Assembly (NCBI GenBank): GCA_034429745.1
Contig: DAOUFY010000108.1
Location: 4,136-68,135, forward strand
Length of the DNA: 64,000 nucleotides
Direction: 5' to 3'
Origin: Anaerolineales bacterium
Lineage (GTDB): Bacteria > Chloroflexota > Anaerolineae > Anaerolineales > DRKV01
Part shown: positions 25,493 through 40,642 of the stretch, piece by piece
Position numbering within the stretch: position 1 is the first letter of the stretch
Layout: each line of letters opens with the position of its first letter
Translations under genes and position numbers: made by a program
The notes under the pieces: generated by a model
Databases searched by the model: none
What the model was told of the DNA's origin: nothing
What the model saw: the letters and a program-made list of their open reading frames with translations, nothing else

Positions 25493-26554
25493 GTGGCACA
25501 GGAAAACAACAGCATAGAGAATGATATTCAACTGCCGCGTTTTTTAGCGGCTTGTCGGCGTCAGGCAGTAGATGCAACGCCAGTTTGGTTTATGCGTCAA
25601 GCCGGCCGATATATGCAGGAATATCAGGCTATACGCGCCAAAGCCAGCTTGCTTAAGATCTGCCAAACACCTGAATTGGCAGTAGAAGTTACTCTTCAAC
25701 CGCTGCGAGTATTAGGGGTAGATGCAGCTATTCTGTTTGCGGATATTCTCTTGCCGGCGATCCCGCTGGGCGTGGGTGTTTCTTTTGTCGAAGGTAAGGG
25801 CCCGATCATTCATCGCCCAATTCGCAGTATAAAAGATGTGCAAGCATTGAAACCATTTGATCCAAACGAAGAATTAAGCTATGTGTATGAAACTATTCGC
25901 TTGCTGCGCGCTGAACTGAAAGGAATACCATTGATCGGGTTCTGTGGAGCGCCTTTTACTTTTGCGGCGTATCTCATTGAAGGCGGGACTTCGCGCAATT
26001 TTATTCTGACAAAAACAATGATGTATGCTGCCCCGGAAACATGGTTTGCTCTATTGGAGGGGCTTACAGATGTGTTGATTGAATACTTGACGGCACAAAT
26101 TCGAGCAGGTGCGCAGGCGGTGCAGGTCTTTGATTCATGGGTAGGGATGCTTTCGCCGGATGATTATCGCAATTTTGTTCAACCATTTTCGGCGCGTTTG
26201 TTGAAAGCCGTAGAAAGGGAAGGAGTGCCGGTAATTCACTTTGGCACTCAAACCAACACCTTGTTGAAGCTGATGAAAGCAGCCGGCGGTACGGTGTTGG
26301 GCTTGGACTGGCGGATTCCCTTGGATGAGGGGTGGCAATTGCTGGGTGATGACGTAGCGGTGCAGGGAAATCTCGACCCGGTTGTGTTGTTTGCACCGCT
26401 CAAGGAGATAAAGAAACGGGTGGAGGATGTACTGCGGCGGGCAAATGGGCGCAAGGGGCATATTTTTAACCTTGGACATGGCATTTTACCGCATACTCCT
26501 GTAGATCATGTAAAAGCAGTAGTGGAGATGGTGCATGAATTTCGCAATGAGTGA
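25493..26554 (+). CDS. hemE: Uroporphyrinogen decarboxylase
   Basis: PVWFMRQAGRYM, AILFADIL and NLGHGI. GTG start preceded by AAGGAG. Confidence 0.92.
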   Translation: MAQENNSIENDIQLPRFLAACRRQAVDATPVWFMRQAGRYMQEYQAIRAKASLLKICQTPELAVEVTLQPLRVLGVDAAILFADILLPAIPLGVGVSFVEGKGPIIHRPIRSIKDVQALKPFDPNEELSYVYETIRLLRAELKGIPLIGFCGAPFTFAAYLIEGGTSRNFILTKTMMYAAPETWFALLEGLTDVLIEYLTAQIRAGAQAVQVFDSWVGMLSPDDYRNFVQPFSARLLKAVEREGVPVIHFGTQTNTLLKLMKAAGGTVLGLDWRIPLDEGWQLLGDDVAVQGNLDPVVLFAPLKEIKKRVEDVLRRANGRKGHIFNLGHGILPHTPVDHVKAVVEMVHEFRNE

Positions 26555-26927
26555 ATGGAATATGGTGGGCATCGCTGCTGCATTTGCAACTTTGGCAGGC
26601 ATTTGGTTTGGGCATGTCGCTGTGCGCTGGATTGAGTTCCGCACAGCCAACCTCAAACTGCCTGTATTTTTGGCGGTGCTATTGGGATTGTGTTTGGAGA
26701 TCGCCTCGCTTGCTGCTTCAGCCCGTTGGCTTTCGGCTGGCTTAGGCATTTTGGGAGTTACCTTTTTATGGGACGCTGTTGAACTGTTCCGTCAGGAGAA
26801 GCGCGTAAAGCGCGGGCACGCGCCGGCAAATCCCCATAACCCGCGTCATCAGCGCATATTGGCAGAATACCCCACGGCGACTGTTGAAGACCCTTTTCAA
26901 CGATTGGAAAGAGATAAAAATGAGTAA
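26535..26927 (+). CDS. Small 3-TM membrane protein, paralogue A
   Basis: 130 aa, overlapping the hemE end. In-frame alternative starts lie at 26547 and 26562. It shares the motif W..xELxxQExRxK and its TM topology with the next ORF. Confidence 0.5.
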   Translation: MNFAMSEWNMVGIAAAFATLAGIWFGHVAVRWIEFRTANLKLPVFLAVLLGLCLEIASLAASARWLSAGLGILGVTFLWDAVELFRQEKRVKRGHAPANPHNPRHQRILAEYPTATVEDPFQRLERDKNE

Positions 26928-26940
26928 ATTCTCTTGAAGC

Positions 26941-27282
26941 ATGAAAATGGCTGAAAAATTTGCCGTATTGGATTTTTTTGGAATAGTTGTAGGCATGATC
27001 ACATTATTGATCATCGGCTTAGGTTTTGTTTGGGTTATTTATGGTGAGCGTTATTTTGGGGCTGCTTGGTCGGGTGTGGTGCTGGGGTTAGGAATGGTGA
27101 TCATTCTCCTTTCTGGTCTGATTCAAAATGATTGGATTGCGGCGGTAGTCGGTATATGGGGGGCTTCGTTGGTTTGGGGCAGTACAGAACTTAAAGCTCA
27201 AGAACGACGGGCAAAATTGGGGTGGTTCCCAAACCGTGAAAAGAAGATATCGTTTCCTTTTGCGCACACCCGCAGGAGTTAA
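26941..27282 (+). CDS. Small 3-TM membrane protein, paralogue B
   Basis: 113 aa. It aligns with the preceding ORF across the TM segments, and LVWGSTELKAQERRAKLGWFP matches FLWDAVELFRQEKRVKRGHAP. Confidence 0.5.
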   Translation: MKMAEKFAVLDFFGIVVGMITLLIIGLGFVWVIYGERYFGAAWSGVVLGLGMVIILLSGLIQNDWIAAVVGIWGASLVWGSTELKAQERRAKLGWFPNREKKISFPFAHTRRS

Positions 27283-27303
27283 TCCTCCAATAAGGATAAG
27301 CTG

Positions 27304-28800
27304 ATGGAGATTTACCGCGAGACGAACGGGAAATATAATCATCCGCAGCAAGCTGCATTAGCGGTTGTTGGGGGGGGAATTGCAGGTTTGGCAGCAGCTT
27401 ATTATGCCATGCGTTACAGCCGAGAAAACCATCTGCCCTTGCGAGTGATGCTGTTTGAAGCGGAGGCAAGGTTTGGCGGAAAGATTGTTACAGAACGCGT
27501 GGCTCATGATGGCGGGCATTTTATCATTGAAGGCGGACCAGATACTTTTTTGGCGACGAAGCCGGGCGGCGTTGCGTTATGCAAAGATCTAAACTTGTCT
27601 GAGAGACTGCAAGGCACAAACCCCAATCAAAGAAATACGTACGTACTTCACAGAGGAAAGCTGCTGCCTTTGCCGGATGGGCTAGCCCTGATGATTCCGG
27701 CGGATATACCATCAGTGCTGCGCTCGCAGCTGCTGACATGGGGAGAGAAAATACGGATGGGGGCGGATTTTCTATTGCCGCCGCGAAACGGAAATGAGGA
27801 TGAAAGCTTGGGCGCATTTATCAGCCGCCGTTTGGGACGAGCTGCCTATGAAAATTTGATTGAACCACTAATGTCCGGCATTTATGCCGGGGATGGTGAT
27901 CAGCTTAGCTTAGCTGCAACTTTTCCTACCTTGCGCGATTTGGAAAGAAAGTACGGTTCTTTAGCGCGCGGCGCGTTGAAAATGCGCAAAGCTATGGGGA
28001 GCAACCAAAAGTCAGGCTGGCGTTCTTCTTTTTTAACCCCCTTGACAGGGCTTGGCGAAATTATAGAAACTTTGGTGCAGGAGCTTTCTCGCTTAGGTGC
28101 AGAGCTTTACCCAAGTTCTCGCGTTATTAGCATTGAACGGGGAAAAAGCACTGGCAGAGGCGGTTTTATCTTAACCGTTGAGCCTAACAAAGCATTTTCT
28201 GTGGATGGATTGATTTTGGCGGCTAATGCTTTTCAAAGCGGACAGCTGCTGAAAACGCTGAATGCTGAGCTAAGTGAGCTGCTGCAAAGTATTCCATACA
28301 CATCAACGGCGACGATCTCTTTAGCTTATCGGGCGGACGATTTGCCGCGCCCTTTAGATGGCTATGGGTATGTCATACCGCGTCGCGAGAAACGGCGGGC
28401 GCTTGCCTGCACATGGACAAGCACTAAATTTCCGCATCGCGCTCCGCCGGGTTATGTCCTGCTACGTGTGTTTGCCGGCAGAGCCGGTGAAGAAGCTGAG
28501 CTGCCAGATAGTGAAGACGCCTTGCTTGAGATCGCAAAAGAGGAACTGCGTTTATCTTTGAAGATCACCGCTGAGCCGCTGCTTCATAAGGTTTTTTATT
28601 GGGAAAAAGCTATGCCACAATATAATCTTGGACACTTGATGAAATTGCAGCGCATTGACGCGATCCTGCAAAGCGAATCAGCACTTGCCTTGGCTGGCAA
28701 TGGTTACCGCGGCATAGGCATTCCCGATTGCATTGTCTCAGGGGAACAGGCGGTAAATAGGGTGATGAGCAGTATAAAGGAGAAGGTTTATGAAGATTGA
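27304..28800 (+). CDS. hemY: Protoporphyrinogen/coproporphyrinogen III oxidase, HemY (CgoX) type, FAD-dependent
   Basis: Dinucleotide fold [14 protein letters not shown]. The length and the C-terminal motifs ([25 protein letters not shown]) are typical of HemY. Confidence 0.85.
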
Positions 28801-30076
28801 GCGATCGGAACAGTATTATAAAAAAGCACAAACGTTATTTCCGGGCGGTGTGAATTCACCGGTGCGCGCCTTTCGTGCCGTAGGTGGACAGCCGCTGTTC
28901 ATAGAACGCGGTACAGGAGTGCATCTCTATGATGTGGATGGAAATCGTTATATTGATTATGTGCTTTCGTGGGGTCCGCTTATCGCCGGACATGCTCACC
29001 CGGCAGTTGTAGAGGCATTGGTGCAAGCTGCAGCAAAAGGCACTTCTTATGGAGCACCCTGCCCATTGGAGGTTGAGCTTGCATTAAAAATCCAATCTTT
29101 TATGCCTAACCTTGAAATGCTGCGCTTTGTCAATTCGGGCACTGAAGCGACGATGTCGGCATTGCGGTTGGCGCGGGCTTATACCGGACGCGATAAAATC
29201 ATCAAGTTTGAGGGCTGCTATCATGGTCATGCGGATATGCTGTTGGTGCAAGCAGGATCTGGGGTGGCTACACTAGGCCTGCCGGATTCACCTGGTGTTC
29301 CTCATGATATAACCAAGAATACGTTGGTTGCTAGGTATAATGACTTGGAATCGGTGCAGGTGCTGTTTGAGGCTTATCCGCATCAAGTTGCGGCAGTAAT
29401 TGTTGAGCCGGTAGCTGGAAATATGGGCGTTGTGCCGCCGCTCTCGGACTTTTTAGACGGGCTGCAGCAGCTTGCCCATCAATATGAGGCGTTGTTGATC
29501 TTTGATGAGGTAATGACAGGCTTTCGGGTTCATCCAGGGGGAGCGCAAGCTTTGTATGGAGTTCAACCTGACTTAACCACTTTAGGCAAAGTAATTGGAG
29601 GCGGGCTGCCCGTAGGCGCTTATGGCGGGAAACGCGAGATTATGGAACTTGTAGCACCGGCTGGGGCGATGTATCAGGCCGGAACATTATCTGGTAATCC
29701 ATTGGCTATGAGTGCCGGCTTGGCAACATTAAGTCTGCTGGAAGAACGAGCAGTGTGGGATGAGATGGAGAAACGCGCTCAACAATTAGAAGAAGGTATT
29801 GCTTTAGCTGCCCAAAAAGCTGGAATTCCTATTCAGCAAACTCGAGTAGGCACAATGTTCACAACGTTTTTCATGGAAGCAGAGCCACGTGATTGGGCAA
29901 GTGTGAAAACAGCAAATCGGGAAAGGTACGCTGCCTATTTCCGCAACATGCTGGAGAATGGAGTGTATTTAGCACCCTCGCAGTTTGAAGCTGGATTTCT
30001 TTCAATCCTGCATGATGAGGAAGTGATAAATCAGACAATTGCTGCTGTGGAAAAAAGCTTCAAGGAACTTGCGTGA
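28790..30076 (+). CDS. hemL: Glutamate-1-semialdehyde 2,1-aminomutase
   Basis: [27 protein letters not shown] and TLGKVIGGG (PLP Lys). It overlaps the hemY end by 11 nt. Confidence 0.92.
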
Positions 30077-30280
30077 AAAGGCTATTGCCTCATCCCTTAC
30101 TTCTTTTTTCTGCTTGAACAGAGGAAAAAAGAGAGCGCAATGACGCAAACCTAATGAAAGAAGGTGGCGGAAGGGTTCATTTGAAAAAAGTTTCTGATAA
30201 AAAGGATAGATAATTTATCTTAATTGTTGTATAATTAATGTAATTTTTTAACTACATATTAAGAGGCAGGGGATTGCCTA

Positions 30281-33200
30281 ATGGATGATGATCAGAATAT
30301 TGCTTTTCATATTGTAGGTATTGGAGCCTCAGCAGGGGGATTAGAAGCGTTAGAGAAATTTTTCAGCCATGTACCCGAGAACAGCGACTTAGCGTTTGTT
30401 GTAGTACAGCACCTTTCGCCGGATTATAAAAGCTTAATGGGAGAGCTGCTTTCAAAATGGACTCCGCTTCCTATACATGTGGCACAGGATGGGATGGAAT
30501 TACAGCCCAACCATGTATATTTAATACCGCGCAATAAAAACCTCACGGTTTTTCATCAAAAATTGTTTTTAGCTGAACGCGATCAGGATCAGCTTAATTT
30601 GCCGATCGATATATTTCTTCAATCAATGGCTGAAGATTTAGGGGAAAAAGCGATCGCTGTCATCCTTTCTGGAACAGGCAGTGATGGAACGCGCGGCATT
30701 CGTTTTATTAAAGAACAAGGGGGAATGGTAATGGCGCAGGACCCGAAAACGGCAAAGTTTGACGGTATGCCCCGCAGTGCTATTTCAACTCAGCTCGTAG
30801 ATTATATTCTGCCTCCCGAGCAAATGCCGCGTGAAATATTGAATTATGTTCAGCACCCTTGTTTGACGGGGGATTCCTCTTTAAGGGTGGTATTGTCCGG
30901 CGATGAGGATACGCTTTCGAAAATTTTTGCACTTCTGCGCAGCCAAAGTGGGGTGGATTTTACATATTACAAGCAGAATACGATGGTACGCCGCATTGAA
31001 CGACGGATGAGTATCAATCAGATAAAAAAGATAGGAGATTATCTGCATTACTTATATGAAAACCCGATAGAATTGAACCTGTTGTTTAAGGAGTTGTTAA
31101 TCGGTGTTACTGGGTTTTTCCGAGATCCAGAAGCATTTGATGTGATCAGGAAAAGAGTATTGCCTCAAATTTTTGAAGGCAAGGATCGCGGTGATCAAAT
31201 TCGCGTTTGGGTGGCAGGCTGCTCTACGGGAGAAGAAGCATATTCGCTGGCGATTCTGCTGAGTGATTATATGGAAAAGACCGCGAAATTCCTTGATGTG
31301 AAAGTATTTGCTACCGATTTAGATAAAGATGCATTGGAACAAGCCGGCAAAGGAATATATTCAGAAAGCATTGTTGCAGATATACCAAAGGAATATTTTC
31401 ACAATTACTTTGTACGGCGCGGCGATAGCTATGAAATATTGCGCCGGGTACGCGAGATGGTGATTTTTGCTCAGCAAAATATCATTGATGACCCGCCTTT
31501 TTCAAAGATTGACTTAATTTCCTGCCGAAATGTGCTGATTTATTTGCAGCCTGTGCTCCAAAAGAAAGTGCTTGATGCGTTTCAGTTCTCGCTTAATCCA
31601 GGAGGTTTTCTGTTTTTGGGAACAAGTGAAACCGTTGGGGATATGGGGGACTTTTTTACGAGTTTTGATAATAAATGGAAGATATATCAATATAAAGGTG
31701 GTTTGCGCGGGCATTTGAACGGCAGTGTTATTGCACGTACGATGGGGGACTATCCTTCGACGCGCTTAGCGCCGTACCGCCGCGGCCGTTTTGGTGATGG
31801 AAAACTAGTCGGCGAGGATATGTATCGCTACCTCATTGAGATGTTTTTACCTCCTACTGTTATTATTGATGAGCAAAGGCAGCTATTGCATGCTTTTGGC
31901 AATGTGGATCAATTTTTGCAGGTACCTTCAGGTGGACGAGTAAGTTTGGATTTGTTAAAGATGGTTCGCGAGGGCTTATCTATTCCTTTAAGCACAGCTA
32001 TCCATAAAGTGCTTAAAGACGATCAAGAAGATATTTTGTATAAAAATGTTGCCTTAAGTGAAAAACTGGTCTCTTCCTCTGGGGAAGAGGAAACAGAGGT
32101 AACGTGGATTGATATTTTTGTGAAACCTCTACGCGACCCCGTAACGAAGCAAAAGCAAATTCTTGTTCAGTTTCGCAAAGCACAAACTCAGGAGGAATTA
32201 TCAAAACACGTCGAAACTTTTGATGCAGATGTGAACGCGCTGCAGCGGATTGCTGATCTGGAGCAGGAATTGCAGTTCACCCGCGAATCGCTTCAGGCTA
32301 CTGTTGAGGAATTGGAAACTTCCAATGAGGAGCTGCAAGCGACTAATGAGGAATTGTTGGCTGCGAATGAGGAACTGCAGAGCACCAATGAAGAGCTGCA
32401 ATCCGTCAACGAAGAATTGGTTACTGTGAATGCAGAATATCAAGCGAAGATCCAGGAATTGATGGACTTAAACGCTGATCTAAATAACCTGTTCAGCAGT
32501 ACAGATGTTGGCACCATCTTCCTTGATCGCTTCCTGCGTATTCGTCGTTTTACTCCGGCAGTGCAGCATGAGATTCATCTACTGGAGCAGGATATTGGCC
32601 GCCCGTTGGCACATATTTCGCATAACTTCGTTGGCATTGATCTTGCTTACGAGGCTCAAAGTGTTATTAAGAGTTTATCCGTGAGAGAGATTGAGGTGCA
32701 GAGTGTTCAAAAGCGCTGGTACCTTATAAAATTCCACCCCTACTATACGCTGGATAGGAGACCGGATGGAGTGGTAATTTCACTGGTGGATATCACTGAT
32801 CTAAAGGCTAGCGACGAGCAGGCTATGATGCTTTCTGCTGCGCTTGAACAAAGCCCCTTGTTGAAATTATTAATTAAATTAGATGGCAAGATCATGTATA
32901 TTAACCCGCGAGTGAGAGAAATAACCTCTTATGTGCCAAAAGAAGTACTTGGGTTGTCATGGGAAGAATTTTTGCTCAACCGGTTGAAGGTGAAAGCGGA
33001 TGAACAGAATGCTCATGCCTTATTACAAGAAATTCAAAAAGCTTTTATAAGTGGTGGAATTTGGAAAGGAGATTTATTATACACCAACAAACAGGGGCAG
33101 CAATTTTGGGGTTATTCAATTTTCAGCACCATTTACGGAAAAGAAAGGCAGCCACTGTGTTACTTATGGATGATTGAGGATATCACCGATCGTAAAAAAG

Positions 33201-33979
33201 TGGAAGAGGAATTGCAGCAATCGGAAGCGAAATATGCCAAGCTGTTTTCAGAGATGACGCAAGGTGTGGTGTACCAAGATCAGGATGGGAAGATCATCTC
33301 TTTCAATCCGGCTGCGTTGGAGATTCTGGGATTATCTGAAGATGAGATATTGGGGCGCACCTCGTATGATCCGCGTTGGCAAGCGACTCATGAAGATGGC
33401 TCTGACTTTCCTGGCGATGAGCATCCGGCGATGATTGCCTTACAAAGCGGTAAAGATATCCGCGATATTGTGATGGGTGTTTTCAATCCCAAGGATAATC
33501 AGCATCATTGGATTTATGTCAGTTCTATGCCGCAATTCCGCCCAGGTGAAGATCGTCCATATCAAGTGATTTCCACTTTCACAGATGTAACGGCGTTATT
33601 TAAGGCGCAGAAGTCATTGAAAGAATTGAAAGAGCAACTGCTGGCGGTATTGGATACTTTTGAACTTCCCTTATGGATTGTAAATGACGAAGGGCAGATA
33701 CAAATATGCAATAAGAGCGCTTGCAGGACGTTTTTTGCTGGTCAGCAAGAGAGAGATATAGCAAACTGCATTGCATTCAATAAGTCAATAATCGAGTTGA
33801 TTCCAGCCGAAGGGCGTGAGGCATTTAACCGCTGTTTGCAGCAAGCATTACGGGGCGAGCCTTCTCAGTTATTGTTGCAAGGTCAAGGAATATCGTTGTT
33901 GTTTAAGCCTTTAATAACTTTTCAGGCTGCTGAGGCAAGCAGTGTGTTGATTGTAGGACAGGAACAGGGAAAAGAGTAA
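30281..33979 (+). CDS. CheB-like methylesterase / CheR-like methyltransferase fusion with a coiled coil and multiple PAS domains
   Basis: CheB_methylest motif ([13 protein letters not shown]), CheR SAM-binding motif ([28 protein letters not shown]), an EEL heptad coiled coil, then at least three PAS/PAC-like modules. There is no kinase core. Confidence 0.9.
32303..32446 (+). repeat. In-frame 21-bp periodic repeat encoding the heptad series xEELxxx
   Basis: Translates as [48 protein letters not shown]. The DNA shows imperfect AATGAGGA(A/G)(C/T)TG... units every 21 bp. Confidence 0.75.
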
Positions 33980-34009: not shown

Positions 34010-35839
34010 ATGGAGAGGGAAGGCAATTTGGATGATTTGAATGAATTGCGCCAACTGGCTGAACGCAAGGTCAAATCCGAAATTGACGTAAAAGGTGTAG
34101 AGACCATCGAGGATGCGCGCGTATTGCTGCATGAATTGCAGATTCATCAAATAGAACTGGAGATGCAAAATGAAGAATTGCGCACCACACGGCAGATGTT
34201 GGAGGAAGAACGCAACAAATACGCGGATTTGTATGATTTTGCACCGATAAGCTATTTTACTTTAAACCCAGAGGGGATTATTCTCGAGATAAATTTAAAT
34301 GGTTCGATGTTGTTGGGCAGGGAACGCAGGTATCTCATCTCAAAACCTTTCGTGTCTTATTTGGCGAACGAATCTCATCAAGTGTTTTTCCAAGCTTTGC
34401 ACAATGCAGCAGCAACAAATGAACCTCAAACATGTGAAGTGATCCTACGTGAAGCTTCTTCTCAATACCCAACATCGAAGCCATCGTTGGGTGAGAAAGT
34501 ATTTTTGCAATTGAAAATTTCTCCATACTTTAGTAAGGAAGCAGAAAGATTTGCGTTGCGCTGTGCTGCAACAGATATCAGCTTGCTAAAGCAGGCTCAA
34601 ATAAAAGTGGAATATGAATCCCGCGTTAATGAAGCCTTGGCAAAGTTGGCAGGAGGAATACTGGTCTCAGATTCTATCAATACTCTAGCTGATGAGGTGC
34701 TCAAAATAGCCCTCAGTCTAACGGACAGCTGCTATGGATTTGTAAGTTACATTGACCAAGAAAAAGGAGTGATGATCGCACCAACTTTAACCAAAGAAAT
34801 ATGGGCTACCTGCAATATACCCCAAAAACAATTTGTATTTGATAAATATGGTGGGCTATGGGGATGGGTAGCAAAGAACAAAGCACCTTTGTTAACTAAT
34901 CAACCGGCCGCCGATCCGCGTTCTGGGGGTGTGCCGGATGGCCATGTTCCCATTCATCGCTTTCTGGGGGTGCCGGTTGTGGCAGGTGATCAATTGTTAG
35001 GCATCATCGCCGTTGCCAATGCTAATCGGGAGTATCAAGTTCAAGATCAGGATACGTTAGGTAGAGTGGCGGATCTATATGCTGTTGCTATACAGCAGTT
35101 CCGTGCGGCTGACTTGTTGAAAAAGCGCACGCAAGAACTTATCCGCTCTAATCAAGAATTGGAAGAATTTGCTTATGTAGCTTCTCATGATTTGCAGGAG
35201 CCCCTGCGGAAAATACGCAGTTTCACCGAATTGCTGCAGAAGCAGCTATACGTTAATATAGATGAGCGTTCGCGTAAGTATATGGATTATGTTGTGGATG
35301 CTGCTCAGAGAATGCAATTGTTGATCAACGACCTGCTGGAGTACTCTCGTTTAGGAAGACTCGAAATAACCTATAAATCGGTGGATATGGAAGCCTTGTT
35401 TAACAAATTGATTTCAGACCTATCACATTTGATTGAGGAAAGCGGCGCAGTCATTACCCATGATCCGTTGCCGCAGATAAAAGCCAACCCGATACAGATG
35501 GAACGTTTGCTGCAAAATTTACTGACGAATGCCTTAAAGTTCCGTACAAGTGAACCGCCGCGGATTTACGTTACAGCCCATCAACAACAGGTTGAGGCAG
35601 CGCAAGGTGATGTCAATGAATGGGTATTTTCTGTCAAAGATAACGGAATTGGCATTCATCCGGATTATCATGAGCGGATCTTTCAACTCTTTCAACGATT
35701 GCATTCGCGGGAGGAATACTCGGGCAGCGGAATGGGGCTGGCAATTTGCAAAAAAATTGTTGAAAAACATGGGGGAAAGATTTGGGTTGAATCGCAAGAG
35801 GGTAAGGGGTCAACCTTTTACTTTACTATTCCCGCCTAA
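34010..35839 (+). CDS. PAS-GAF sensor histidine kinase, cytoplasmic
   Basis: N-terminal coil LHELQIHQIELEMQNEELRTT, a PAS module, a GAF-like module, an H-box (YVASHDLQEPLRKI), and HATPase boxes (LLTNALKF, DNGIGI, GSGMGLA). It starts 30 nt after the CheB/CheR gene. Confidence 0.9.
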   Translation: MEREGNLDDLNELRQLAERKVKSEIDVKGVETIEDARVLLHELQIHQIELEMQNEELRTTRQMLEEERNKYADLYDFAPISYFTLNPEGIILEINLNGSMLLGRERRYLISKPFVSYLANESHQVFFQALHNAAATNEPQTCEVILREASSQYPTSKPSLGEKVFLQLKISPYFSKEAERFALRCAATDISLLKQAQIKVEYESRVNEALAKLAGGILVSDSINTLADEVLKIALSLTDSCYGFVSYIDQEKGVMIAPTLTKEIWATCNIPQKQFVFDKYGGLWGWVAKNKAPLLTNQPAADPRSGGVPDGHVPIHRFLGVPVVAGDQLLGIIAVANANREYQVQDQDTLGRVADLYAVAIQQFRAADLLKKRTQELIRSNQELEEFAYVASHDLQEPLRKIRSFTELLQKQLYVNIDERSRKYMDYVVDAAQRMQLLINDLLEYSRLGRLEITYKSVDMEALFNKLISDLSHLIEESGAVITHDPLPQIKANPIQMERLLQNLLTNALKFRTSEPPRIYVTAHQQQVEAAQGDVNEWVFSVKDNGIGIHPDYHERIFQLFQRLHSREEYSGSGMGLAICKKIVEKHGGKIWVESQEGKGSTFYFTIPA

Positions 35840-39619: not shown

Positions 39620-40642
39620 GTGAAGATAAAACAAAAAACAGGTTTCTCCAACAATATGATGAAAGCATTCAAAGTGGGTATATTCAGTGCCATCCTGCTG
39701 CTTAGTCTGAGCGCTTGTTTGCTTTTTCAAGCCGATCGTTCTAAACCTACAATTGTGGTTGTCAAGGAAGAAATGTCATTGGAAGAAGCGATGACGCTGG
39801 TTGCTGAAGCAACTGCTGAAGGGATAGGGTCTTTGAAATCAGAAGGAGAAGCCGCTGCCTCAGCAACGCCCTACGTGAATAGCATGGAGCAAGGAGAAAG
39901 CTTACCACCAGCCCAAGCAGCAACCGCCAAAGCGCTTGGTGTTCAGGCAACTCAAGCGGTGCAAGCTGCACTGAATCAACTTTCTACAGCGCAGGTGTTG
40001 CTAAGCACTCAAACTCAGGTGATTCGCCAAAGAACCTTGCAGCCAGTAAGCACACTGGCTTTTACGGAAACGGCTTGGCCCTCGCCGGTTGCCACCAACC
40101 CGACAACATTTTTCCGCAATACGTTCACGCCTAAGCCAACGCACACTTTTACTCTTACTCCAACGGAGACTTTAACTGCCACCCCTATACCGCCGGGGCT
40201 GCGCGGTTTGACAGTTGATCAAGTGAAGGCCGCGTTAGCAGCAAAGGGAATTACACAGTGCCGGGAAGAAACCGATAACTGGGTGAAGATGACTGTTTGC
40301 GAATCTCAAACTGCGGATAGAAAAAATTGGTATTATGCAGAGATTTATAGTGTGCCCGCCCTGCAGATTGACGTCAATAACGTGATAATGGCAGTGTTTC
40401 AAACTGATCCAAATGATGAAGTAACTTTGGATAAACTGAGGGCATTAGCAGAATTAAATTATGTCGGTTCAGACGCAGCGGCAGCGCGAGCGTGGCTTGA
40501 ACAGAACTTGCCTTCCTTGGGGAATGAGAATGATAAGCGTAAAAATCTTTTTGGAGGTGTGTGGTTTGTGCTTTATGGACCAAAGAATGGGGTGCGTTTA
40601 GAGATTGGTTCACCGCCTCCTTACCCAACTCCACCTAGTTAA
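39620..40642 (+). CDS. Hypothetical lipoprotein with a Thr/Pro-rich linker
   Basis: GTG start 6 nt after GGGAGG, and lipobox LSLSAC|L. An extended -10 (TGGTATAAT, 39573-39581) lies upstream. No family recognised. Confidence 0.5.
   Translation: MKIKQKTGFSNNMMKAFKVGIFSAILLLSLSACLLFQADRSKPTIVVVKEEMSLEEAMTLVAEATAEGIGSLKSEGEAAASATPYVNSMEQGESLPPAQAATAKALGVQATQAVQAALNQLSTAQVLLSTQTQVIRQRTLQPVSTLAFTETAWPSPVATNPTTFFRNTFTPKPTHTFTLTPTETLTATPIPPGLRGLTVDQVKAALAAKGITQCREETDNWVKMTVCESQTADRKNWYYAEIYSVPALQIDVNNVIMAVFQTDPNDEVTLDKLRALAELNYVGSDAAAARAWLEQNLPSLGNENDKRKNLFGGVWFVLYGPKNGVRLEIGSPPPYPTPPS

What the first reader, a model, noticed from the sequence alone, without database searches (positions are those of the whole stretch)
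32303..32446. The CheB/CheR protein's own coiled coil is a run of EExxA[T/S]-like heptads resembling MCP methylation sites
Between the CheR domain and the first PAS module the protein reads [42 protein letters not shown]. The classical receptor methylation consensus is Glu-Glu-x-x-Ala-Ser/Thr. EELQAT matches it exactly, and EELLAA, EELQST and EELQSV are one substitution away. The downstream kinase opens with the same element (QNEELRTT, about 34169-34189). A coil carrying five or six candidate acceptor Glu pairs in cis with both modifying enzymes suggests auto- or partner-methylation as the signalling memory.
Basis: inference. Interest (0 to 1): 0.7.

Follow-up and report, generated by a model that had tools for sequence, protein, structure and literature searches.

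The report
Methylation-site-like coil in CheB–CheR sensor protein
A sensor protein that carries both chemotaxis "memory" enzymes (CheR, which methylates glutamates, and CheB, which removes the methyl groups) also contains a very strongly conserved acidic helix of six heptads that look like the enzymes' normal target sites, so it may methylate itself; this has not been shown experimentally.

Summary
Window 32303-32446 encodes exactly the quoted peptide, inside a 1232-aa CheB-CheR-(PAS-like)-coil-PAS_10-PAS-PAS protein.

The six x-E-E-L-x-small-small heptads share the heptad register of E. coli Tar methylation sites 1-3 (LEETAAS, MEQLTAT).

I took 150 family representatives selected only by their CheB-CheR part.
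- 134 of them carry at least 5 such heptads.
- Over 272 unique coils from all sets, the exposed b/c Glu-Glu pair is 98.7% Glu and position f is 99% Ser/Thr/Ala.
- The coil is the most conserved segment of the protein, more so than either enzyme domain.
- It has about 13 acidic residues and almost no basic ones.

Both enzymes keep their catalytic residues. The gene is almost never near MCP, CheA or CheW genes. In about half of 80 loci from many phyla it is followed by a sensor gene whose product opens with HELQVHQIELEMQNEELR, as it is here.

Best reading (confidence about 0.5): the coil is the methyl-accepting substrate of the fused enzymes, an MCP-like adaptation module built into a cytoplasmic PAS sensor. 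Methylation itself is untested. Asn(a) and Leu(d) are just as invariant, so a purely structural role is not excluded. I found no paper addressing this.

The parts
30281..33979 (+). ORF of the 1232-aa CheB-CheR-PAS fusion protein (no REC, no HisKA/HATPase)
   Evidence: The best homologues are 60-65% identical Chloroflexota/Anaerolineae-type proteins, which JGI names 'two-component system CheB/CheR fusion protein'.
30314..30838 (+). CheB methylesterase catalytic domain (res 12-186). Triad S17/H44/D135.
   Evidence: Pfam E=7.9e-60. Aligns to the E. coli CheB triad S164/H190/D286. These residues are invariant in 103 homologues. Model matches 3SFT with TM 0.87.
30914..31678 (+). CheR_N plus the CheR SAM-dependent methyltransferase domain (res 212-466)
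   Evidence: Pfam. R281/Y421 align to E. coli R98/Y235. The basic alpha2 residues K231, R238, R241, R242 align to K46, R53, R56, R57. All are invariant or at least 90% conserved. Model matches 5FTW with TM 0.89.
31805..32179 (+). Unannotated PAS-like alpha/beta domain ('X', res 509-633) between CheR and the coil
   Evidence: AF2 secondary structure with pLDDT about 85-93. No Pfam hit even at E<=10. The X-coil-PAS_10 part matches tandem-PAS proteins (DosP, FixL, PpsR).
32225..32500 (+). Single continuous 92-residue helix (res 649-740) that contains the repeat
   Evidence: AF2 with a 103-sequence MSA: helix 649-740, pLDDT 82-90.
32303..32428 (+). Six x-E-E-L-x-small-small heptads (res 675-716): [42 protein letters not shown]. 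These are the candidate methyl-accepting Glu pairs.
32480..32797 (+). PAS_10 domain (res 734-839), which immediately follows the helix
   Evidence: Pfam E=8.9e-25; AF2.
32873..33532 (+). Two further PAS domains (res 865-1084)
   Evidence: Pfam PAS_9, PAS.
34010..35839 (+). Partner sensor kinase, 31 bp downstream: N-terminal coil-PAS, GAF, HisKA, HATPase_c
   Evidence: A homologous N-terminal module lies directly downstream of the CheB-CheR gene in 38 of the 80 related loci (41 loci hold a match somewhere within the stretch fetched).
34127..34252 (+). Partner N-terminal coil LHELQIH QIELEMQ NEELRTT RQMLEEE RNKYADL YDFAP (res 40-81), holding a single NEEL heptad
   Evidence: Family profile: g-His 100%, a-Gln 93%, a-Asn 100%, c-Glu 78% / Gln 12% in the NEEL heptad.
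30207..30235 (+). Best sigma-70-like promoter match (10/12), in the 205-bp gap upstream of the CheB-CheR start. There is no convincing terminator between the two genes.
   Evidence: This is weak: the total number of matches does not exceed the shuffled expectation.

Best explanation
The six N-E-E-L-x-[A/S/T]-[T/S/A/V] heptads are the methyl-accepting segment of this protein.

Proposed mechanism:
- The fused CheR domain, from the same chain or the other chain of a dimer, transfers methyl groups from SAM to the exposed Glu at heptad position c, and perhaps b.
- The fused CheB domain, which has no receiver domain, hydrolyses the esters.
- The 42-residue stretch carries about 13 Glu and almost no Lys/Arg, and has Asn rather than a hydrophobic residue at five of six 'a' positions. 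The unmethylated coiled coil should therefore be only marginally stable.
- Graded neutralisation of up to 6-12 charges per chain would then tune the packing or rotation of the long helix that joins the PAS-like domain to PAS_10.
- This would tune the output passed to the downstream sensor kinase.

The result would be an MCP-style adaptation or memory device built into a cytoplasmic PAS sensor, outside any chemotaxis array.

Shown here: the sequence, its register, its extreme conservation, its near-obligatory cis linkage to catalytically intact CheB and CheR, and its non-che genomic context. Inferred: that the Glu residues are actually methylated, and everything about how methylation changes signalling.
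For: (1) Register match to real sites. E. coli Tar sites 1-3 read TEQ*QASA / LEE*TAAS / MEQ*LTAT, that is a-E-E*-d-x-small-small. This is the layout of [14 protein letters not shown] and the other heptads. [quoted passage not shown]

(2) Unbiased conservation. 150 representatives were chosen with the CheB-CheR part only. Of these, 134 have at least 5 consecutive xEEL heptads, with a mode of 6. Of the other 16, 12 have no coil: 11 are truncated or frameshifted and P0137 has a shortened coil without PAS_10. Four keep a shorter or interrupted run (P0182, P0233, P0179, P0224).

(3) Surface positions are invariant. Position b is E in 96-100% and c is E in 93-100%. Over 272 unique coils both are 98.7% E. 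Position f is S/T/A in 99% and g is T/V/S/A in 95%. Upstream heptads of the same helix show the ordinary pattern: d-Leu conserved and b/e/f at 2-3.7 bits.

(4) The coil is the most conserved part of the protein. Mean entropy is 0.81 bit, against 1.56 (CheB), 1.72 (CheR) and 1.98 (PAS_10).

(5) The enzymes look active. The CheB triad, CheR R98/Y235 equivalents and the basic alpha2 helix of CheR_N are invariant.

(6) The enzymes need a substrate that is not in a che cluster. An MCP signalling domain lies within 10 kb in only 2 of 80 loci. CheA and CheW are never found nearby. None of these is in the window.

(7) Charge. On average 12.9 acidic and 0.27 basic residues per 42 aa; 84% of coils have no Lys/Arg.

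(8) When b or c is not Glu it is most often Gln (21 of 44).

(9) There is precedent for CheR acting on a non-MCP at EE/ED pairs: PhoP (PMC8546571).
Against: There is no biochemical evidence.

Asn(a) and Leu(d) are as invariant as the Glu pair, which substrate recognition alone does not explain. MCP methylation regions are much less strictly conserved and vary E/Q freely, whereas here Q is 1% or less.

The helix is predicted as a single long helix, presumably a parallel dimeric coil. It is not the antiparallel four-helix bundle that CheR and CheB normally see.

The natural experiment is inconclusive. One CheB/CheR-less relative (L070) has a decayed coil, NEKHCCT NEESIAS. Another (P0057) keeps seven perfect heptads.

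Many organisms that carry this family also have MCPs, for example R. centenum and P. inhibens.
Confidence: 0.5

Rival explanations
1. The coil is a structural signalling helix, a dimerisation or transmission element between two PAS-type domains. Its outer face is conserved because it packs against another conserved surface: PAS_10, the PAS-like X domain, the enzyme domains acting as regulators, or the partner's N-terminal coil. On this view the CheB and CheR domains act on other proteins such as ordinary MCPs, and the PAS/coil part regulates them.
For: Asn(a) and Leu(d) are as invariant as the EE pair. This points to a precise structural unit, a polar Asn ladder, rather than just a recognition motif.

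The X-coil-PAS_10 part resembles tandem-PAS proteins joined by long helices, such as DosP, FixL and PpsR.

Gln at b/c is rare, unlike in MCP sites.

A CheB/CheR-less relative keeps a perfect coil (P0057).

Some hosts have MCPs. In L033 an MCP-domain gene sits directly upstream.
Against: Linker helices of tandem-PAS sensors are not normally the most conserved part of the protein. Here the coil is more conserved than either catalytic domain.

The stretch has about 13 Glu, no compensating Lys/Arg and no e/g salt bridges, which is a poor design for a purely structural coil.

The register coincides with real Tar sites.

78 of 80 loci have no MCP, CheA or CheW within 10 kb.

The P. inhibens chimera is not co-regulated with the che/flagellar regulon.
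Confidence: 0.27
2. The physiological substrate is mainly the partner protein encoded downstream, whose N-terminal coil carries one N-E-[E/Q]-L heptad. The cis NEEL repeat would then serve as a docking, heterodimerisation or competing pseudo-substrate element.
For: A gene whose product starts with HELQVHQIELEMQNEELR plus PAS follows the CheB-CheR gene in 38 of the 80 loci across phyla, and also in the window.

In the partner, the position equivalent to the methyl-accepting Glu is E in 78% and Q in 12%. This E/Q alternation is typical of CheR/CheB sites.

Both coils share the skeleton polar-a / Glu-c / Leu-d.
Against: The partner's +4/+5 positions are mostly Arg and Ala/Thr, so the MCP consensus is not kept.

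About half of the loci have no such partner within reach, and 26 of 80 have the kinase fused instead.

This reading does not explain why six cis heptads are kept invariant.
Confidence: 0.15
3. The resemblance is fortuitous: a low-complexity or recently duplicated repeat with no specific function.
For: Glu- and Leu-rich heptads are common in coiled coils. Pfam gives only sub-threshold generic coiled-coil matches.
Against: The DNA repeat units are only 68-70% alike, while the peptide is conserved across at least ten phyla. Exposed positions are nearly invariant in 272 unique sequences.
Confidence: 0.01

Closest known systems
Methylation helices of methyl-accepting chemotaxis proteins (E. coli Tar/Tsr sites 1-3)
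   Same: Heptad-spaced Glu-Glu pairs at positions b/c, followed by small residues at f/g (Tar LEETAAS, MEQLTAT versus [14 protein letters not shown]). An acidic helix served by CheR and CheB. Multiple sites in a row.
   Different: No MCPsignal domain. A single long helix rather than an antiparallel hairpin in a four-helix bundle. Asn at 'a'. Six contiguous sites. Far stricter conservation and almost no E/Q alternation. The enzymes are fused in cis instead of being recruited. No CheA/CheW context.
CheB/CheR fusion proteins with PAS_10 (the database family that JGI names 'two-component system CheB/CheR fusion protein'; from my own knowledge, KEGG K13924)
   Same: The window protein is a typical member: CheB_methylest-CheR_N-CheR-coil-PAS_10-PAS. 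The coil is a hallmark of the family.
   Different: Nothing in the sequence differs. The open point is function: I found no paper that assigns a substrate or discusses the repeat, only passing mentions in genome papers.
CheR methylation of the non-MCP response regulator PhoP in Salmonella (PMC8546571)
   Same: CheR acts on consecutive acidic residues (E8/D9, E107/E108) outside a chemoreceptor.
   Different: PhoP is a globular response regulator methylated by a free-standing CheR. There is no repeat, no coil and no fused esterase.
FrzCD/FrzF and CheR-TPR systems (cytoplasmic receptor methylation with a domain-extended CheR; PMC2535941, PMC3447774)
   Same: A CheR carrying extra domains works in non-flagellar, cytoplasmic signalling.
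   Different: The substrates there are still MCP-domain proteins, encoded in che-type clusters with CheA and CheW.
Helical linkers of tandem-PAS sensors (DosP, FixL, PpsR)
   Same: The PAS - long helix - PAS arrangement. The fold search matches this part of the model to them.
   Different: From my own knowledge, those linkers are not poly-acidic Asn-ladder repeats and are not fused to modifying enzymes.

Membership tests
CheB-CheR-PAS_10 fusion protein family | CheB_methylest, CheR_N, CheR and PAS_10 domains in one polypeptide, in that order | tested here: met
   Pfam E-values of 7.9e-60, 7.1e-15, 1.2e-55 and 8.9e-25. 116 homologues with the same Pfam set.
CheB-CheR-PAS_10 fusion protein family | Catalytic residues of both enzymes retained (CheB Ser-His-Asp; CheR Arg98/Tyr235 equivalents) | tested here: met
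   S17/H44/D135 and R281/Y421 align to the E. coli residues and are invariant in alignment A2.
CheB-CheR-PAS_10 fusion protein family | Run of x-E-E-L heptads immediately N-terminal to PAS_10 | tested here: met
   Six heptads at residues 675-716. Present in 134 of 150 representatives chosen without the coil.
Methyl-accepting chemotaxis protein (MCP) | MCPsignal (PF00015) cytoplasmic signalling domain | tested here: not met
   No PF00015 hit for the whole protein at E<=0.01. None among the 25 best families listed for the coil alone at E<=10, where 117 families matched.
Methyl-accepting chemotaxis protein (MCP) | Methylation helices arranged as an antiparallel hairpin in a four-helix bundle | tested here: not met
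   AF2 predicts one uninterrupted helix, 649-740. The oligomeric state could not be modelled.
Methyl-accepting chemotaxis protein (MCP) | [quoted passage not shown] | tested here: met
   EELQAT matches exactly and EELQST, EELLAA and EELETS are one substitution off. The register is the same as Tar sites 1-3.
Methyl-accepting chemotaxis protein (MCP) | Glutamates actually carboxyl-methylated by CheR and demethylated by CheB | not testable with these tools
   Requires mass spectrometry or radiolabel assays.
Methyl-accepting chemotaxis protein (MCP) | Genomic or functional association with CheA and CheW | tested here: not met
   No CheA or CheW within 10 kb in any of the 80 loci, nor in the 64-kb window.
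Canonical two-stranded coiled coil | Hydrophobic residues at both a and d positions, with variable b, c, f positions | tested here: not met
   Position d is Leu in 87-100%, but a is Asn in 85-100% in five of six heptads, and b, c, f are nearly invariant.
Signalling helix (S-helix) of Anantharaman, Balaji and Aravind (definition recalled from memory) | About 40-residue coiled-coil linker with a central conserved E-R-T signature | tested here: not met
   No E-R-T, and essentially no Arg, in residues 666-716. The definition was not checked against a paper.

The most novel reading that the evidence does not exclude
The NEEL coil is a genuine CheR/CheB substrate. The CheB-CheR-PAS_10 family would then be the first self-contained, MCP-independent glutamate-methylation memory module, with writer, eraser and multi-site acceptor in one polypeptide. 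It would give adaptation to ordinary two-component and c-di-GMP signalling (the partner kinases and GGDEF-EAL proteins that open with HELQVHQIELEMQNEELR) in many phyla, including lineages outside classical chemotaxis.
Probability: 0.45. Interest if true: 0.85.

Novelty: new variant of a known kind. Interest (0 to 1): 0.65.

Why it matters
Reversible glutamate methylation by CheR and CheB is the textbook mechanism of sensory adaptation, and it is regarded as essentially specific to chemoreceptors. This family is large: more than 6000 hits to the coil-PAS_10 query alone, spread over at least ten phyla. Its function is uncharacterised.

If its invariant acidic coil is the acceptor, methylation-based memory would also operate in cytoplasmic PAS sensors that feed histidine kinases and c-di-GMP enzymes. 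The system would be compact and could be reconstituted from one or two proteins.

The analysis gives a directly testable question. It names the residues to mutate (E676/677 through E711/712, S17, R281, Y421) and the partner protein to assay (ORF 34010-35839).

Tried and rejected
- **PAS_10-only homologue search.** The word index found nothing, so I could not ask whether PAS_10 ever occurs without the coil.
- **PDB sequence search with coil plus PAS_10.** It returned only chance coiled-coil hits (best E=0.079). There is no solved relative.
- **Homology of the coil to the MCP signalling domain.** Rejected.
- **Recent DNA duplication as the origin of the repeat.** Rejected: units are 68-70% alike.
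- **The first genome scan.** It used coil peptides as search patterns, so its conservation figures are biased. I therefore repeated the test with representatives chosen by the CheB-CheR part only.
- **Short 'stand-alone' coil-PAS_10 proteins.** I hoped they were natural split systems. P0011, P0026 and P0036 have CheB/CheR ORFs directly upstream. For P0036 the coil frame reads on upstream without a stop, which points to a frameshift. P0002 has CheR, X and CheB remnants around it. I make no claim of a genuine split.
- **CheB/CheR-less relatives as a natural experiment.** L070 has a decayed coil and P0057 an intact one. This is inconclusive.
- **AF2 model.** It gave secondary structure only. No coordinates or PAE were available, so the distance from the coil to the active sites could not be measured.
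- **Literature.** Ten searches found nothing on the function of this family or on the motif. Two papers I wanted (Alexander & Zhulin 2007; Wuichet & Zhulin 2010) are not held.
- **** was a malformed request and gave nothing.
Full report
**1. Observation**

This is residues 675-722 of ORF 30281-33979, which is 1232 aa.

Pfam finds these domains:
- CheB_methylest 12-186
- CheR_N 212-262
- CheR 276-466
- PAS_10 734-839
- PAS_9 865-970
- PAS 985-1084

There is no receiver domain and no kinase domain. The next ORF (34010-35839) starts 31 bp downstream. It encodes a coil/PAS-GAF-HisKA-HATPase_c kinase that contains QNEELRTT at 34166-34189.

The heptad register is a = V/N, b,c = E,E, d = L, f = A/S/T, g = S/T/A/V.

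[quoted passage not shown] EELQST, EELLAA and EELETS are one change away.

The strict pattern occurs 4 times in 21,203 residues of long ORFs in this window, and twice within these 42 residues. A relaxed pattern hits four heptads in a row. The underlying 21-bp DNA units are only 68-70% alike, so the repeat is kept at the protein level.

**2. Anatomy**

I ran AlphaFold2 on residues 1-860 with a 103-sequence alignment. It gave mean pLDDT 88.6 and pTM 0.62. The model shows:
- the CheB and CheR folds;
- a disordered linker (482-509);
- a PAS-like alpha/beta domain (509-633) that no Pfam model recognises;
- one uninterrupted helix (649-740);
- PAS_10.

The coil is therefore the linker between two PAS-type domains, not directly 'between CheR and the first PAS'.

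Foldseek matches CheR to 5FTW (TM 0.89) and CheB to 3SFT (TM 0.87). It matches the C-terminal part to tandem-PAS sensors (DosP, FixL, PpsR). No fused CheB-CheR protein has a solved structure.

**3. Comparison with real methylation sites**

E. coli Tar, read from MG1655, has its sites 1-3 in consecutive heptads: TEQ*QASA, LEE*TAAS, MEQ*LTAT. That is a-E-E*-d-x-small-small, the same register as NEELQAT and NEELQST. The resemblance holds for position within the heptad as well as for the motif string.

**4.

A search with coil plus PAS_10 found 6027 relatives. A genome scan returned 80 loci from Chloroflexota, Bacillota, Cyanobacteria, Planctomycetota, Bacteroidota, Gemmatimonadota, Spirochaetes, Desulfobacterota, Acidobacteriota and Proteobacteria.

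That scan used coil peptides as its search patterns. I therefore repeated the test on 150 representatives, each standing for one 50%-identity cluster, retrieved with residues 1-470 (CheB-CheR) alone.

Results from the unbiased set:
- 134 of 150 have at least 5 consecutive xEEL heptads (mode 6, maximum 9).
- Of the other 16, 12 have no coil: 11 are truncated or frameshifted, and P0137 has a shortened coil without PAS_10. Four keep a shorter or interrupted run (P0182, P0233, P0179, P0224).

Per-position conservation (n=112):

| Position | Conservation |
|---|---|
| a | Asn 85-100% (in five of six heptads) |
| b | Glu 96-100% |
| c | Glu 93-100% |
| d | Leu 87-100% |
| f | almost only A/S/T |
| g | S/T/A/V |

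Over 272 unique coils from all sets, b and c are each 98.7% Glu. Position f is 99% S/T/A.

Heptads further upstream in the same helix behave like an ordinary coil: d-Leu is conserved and b/e/f run at 2-3.7 bits.

In the biased set the coil has a mean entropy of 0.81 bit, against 1.56 for CheB, 1.72 for CheR and 1.98 for PAS_10.

**5. Linkage to the enzymes and context**

In 66 of 80 loci, CheB, CheR, coil and PAS_10 lie in one ORF. Twelve of the other 14 either have CheB/CheR directly upstream in another frame, or carry a CheR part or lie within about 1 kb of a contig end. L039 is a split gene. Only L070 truly lacks the enzymes.

The CheB triad (S17/H44/D135), the CheR residues R281/Y421 and the basic face of CheR_N (K231, R238, R241, R242) align with E. 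coli S164/H190/D286, R98/Y235 and K46/R53/R56/R57. They are invariant or at least 90% conserved. That the alpha2 basic face recognises the receptor's methylation helix is my recollection of published CheR work, not something I tested.

An MCP signalling domain lies within 10 kb in only 2 of 80 loci: L033, directly upstream, and L049. CheW and CheA are never nearby, and none of these is in the window. In the window the gene follows a haem-biosynthesis cluster.

The literature offers only passing mentions. One is a CheB-CheR hybrid outside the che clusters of R. centenum (PMC2890560). The other is a P. inhibens chimera whose expression does not follow the che regulon (bioRxiv 10.1101/2025.03.24.645028).

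**6. The partner**

In 38 of 80 loci the gene directly downstream encodes a protein whose N-terminus is homologous to that of the window's kinase. A further 26 family members carry a fused kinase.

The partners are histidine kinases, hybrid kinases or PAS-GGDEF(-EAL) proteins. Their N-terminal coil is itself highly conserved: L-H-E-L-Q-V-H / Q-I-E-L-E-M-Q / N-E-[E 78%, Q 12%]-L-R-x-[A/T/S].

Only N-E-E-L is shared, though. The +4/+5 small residues are not, so EELRTT in this window is a local coincidence.

**7. Interpretation**

The exposed b, c and f positions of a dimeric coil are normally free to vary. Their invariance across phyla means that this face is read by something present in every family member. 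The two fused enzymes, whose natural substrates have this motif in this register, are the simplest candidates.

The composition points the same way. The stretch has about 13 Glu, essentially no Lys/Arg (84% of coils have none) and Asn rather than a hydrophobic residue at 'a'. That predicts a marginally stable, strongly charged coil whose stability would respond to charge neutralisation. From general knowledge of MCPs, this is how methylation is thought to act on them.

CheR can also act outside MCPs at EE/ED pairs, as in PhoP (PMC8546571).

I therefore rank 'cis or in-dimer methyl-accepting coil' first, at about 0.5.

**8. Caveats**

- Nothing here demonstrates methylation.
- Asn(a) and Leu(d) are as invariant as the Glu pair, and Gln at b/c is rare. 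It is, however, the commonest replacement (21 of 44). The unit is thus more rigidly fixed than any MCP site. A purely structural explanation, with the outer face packing on PAS_10, the X domain or the partner coil, stays at about 0.27.
- The partner's N-terminus could be the main substrate, or an additional one (about 0.15).
- The natural experiment with CheB/CheR-less relatives is split. L070 has decayed heptads, NEKHCCT and NEESIAS. P0057 has seven perfect heptads.
- Apparent split genes have CheB/CheR ORFs directly upstream. For P0036 I confirmed a frameshift, because the coil frame reads on upstream without a stop. P0002 is a degraded locus.
- I had no coordinates for the model, so I could not test the geometry.

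**9. Novelty and verdict**

The protein is an ordinary member of a large, annotated but functionally uncharacterised family. The repeat is a hallmark of that family, not a peculiarity of this genome.

The idea that the repeat is the acceptor for the fused enzymes did not appear in any paper I could search. If it is true, this is a new variant of a known mechanism: CheR/CheB adaptation acting on a non-MCP, with the substrate in cis.

Interest is 0.65.

Noticed in passing
window 34010-35839; loci L001-L080 (downstream of each CheB-CheR gene): There is a conserved two-gene module. In 38 of the 80 loci across many phyla, the CheB-CheR-PAS gene is followed by a sensor gene (HK, hybrid HK or PAS-GGDEF(-EAL)). 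Its product opens with the highly conserved coil HELQVHQIELEMQNEELR followed by a PAS domain. In that coil the g-position His and Gln and the a-position Asn are 100% conserved. The second Glu of NEEL alternates with Gln (78%/12%).
   Followed up: partly
window 31805-32179 (protein residues 509-633): An unannotated domain sits between CheR and the coil. AF2 predicts it with high confidence as a PAS-like alpha/beta fold. It has no Pfam match even at E<=10, and it is the least conserved part of the family (mean entropy 2.65 bits).
   Followed up: partly
window 20842-30076: Immediately upstream, on the same strand, is a run of tetrapyrrole/haem biosynthesis genes: GlutR (hemA), porphobilinogen deaminase, ALAD, a radical-SAM enzyme, URO-D, a flavin amine-oxidase-type enzyme and a class-III aminotransferase (hemL-like). 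A multi-PAS sensor directly after a haem operon raises the question of whether one of its PAS domains binds haem.
   Followed up: no
L070 9545-13351 (Waterburya sp.); P0057 / L086 5001-5888: Two relatives lack CheB and CheR upstream. L070 is a hybrid kinase (X-coil-PAS_10-PAS-GAF-HisKA-HATPase-REC) with a degenerate coil (NEKHCCT NEESIAS, one heptad fewer). P0057 keeps seven perfect heptads. The two contradict each other as a natural experiment.
   Followed up: partly
L033 6696-7910 (Rhodoferax sp.): This is one of only two loci where an MCPsignal-domain protein lies near the CheB-CheR gene. Here it is 404 aa, ends 6 bp before the CheB-CheR start, and the downstream partner is PAS-GGDEF. It may be a hybrid arrangement that links the family to a soluble MCP.
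   Followed up: partly
P0034, P0036, P0038, P0040, L042, L046 and others (coil region): The heptad number varies (5 to 9, mode 6). One subfamily carries an extra heptad with Lys at 'a' (…[18 protein letters not shown]…), so the repeat can grow or shrink by whole heptads.
   Followed up: partly
L085 4900-5060 (Ca. Manganitrophus), L084, L082: Several assemblies call CheB, CheR and coil-PAS_10 as separate overlapping ORFs. In L085 the coil frame reads on upstream without a stop (…QRTLDLEQELNITKETLQ…), next to an A6 run. These look like frameshifts or annotation artefacts rather than true split systems.
   Followed up: yes
window 17346-20684 (-): A second large cytoplasmic multi-PAS histidine kinase (1112 aa, at least 4 PAS domains, HisKA, HATPase_c) lies about 10 kb upstream on the opposite strand. 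It has no NEEL or HQIELE motif.
   Followed up: partly
window 33533-33976 (protein residues ~1085-1232): The C-terminal ~150 residues of the CheB-CheR protein have no Pfam assignment beyond the edge of a weak PAS_7 match. This may be a further divergent PAS domain.
   Followed up: no
window 39620-40642 (+): A 340-aa ORF with no Pfam family at E<=1e-5, located next to a DinG-like exonuclease-helicase gene and mfd.
   Followed up: no
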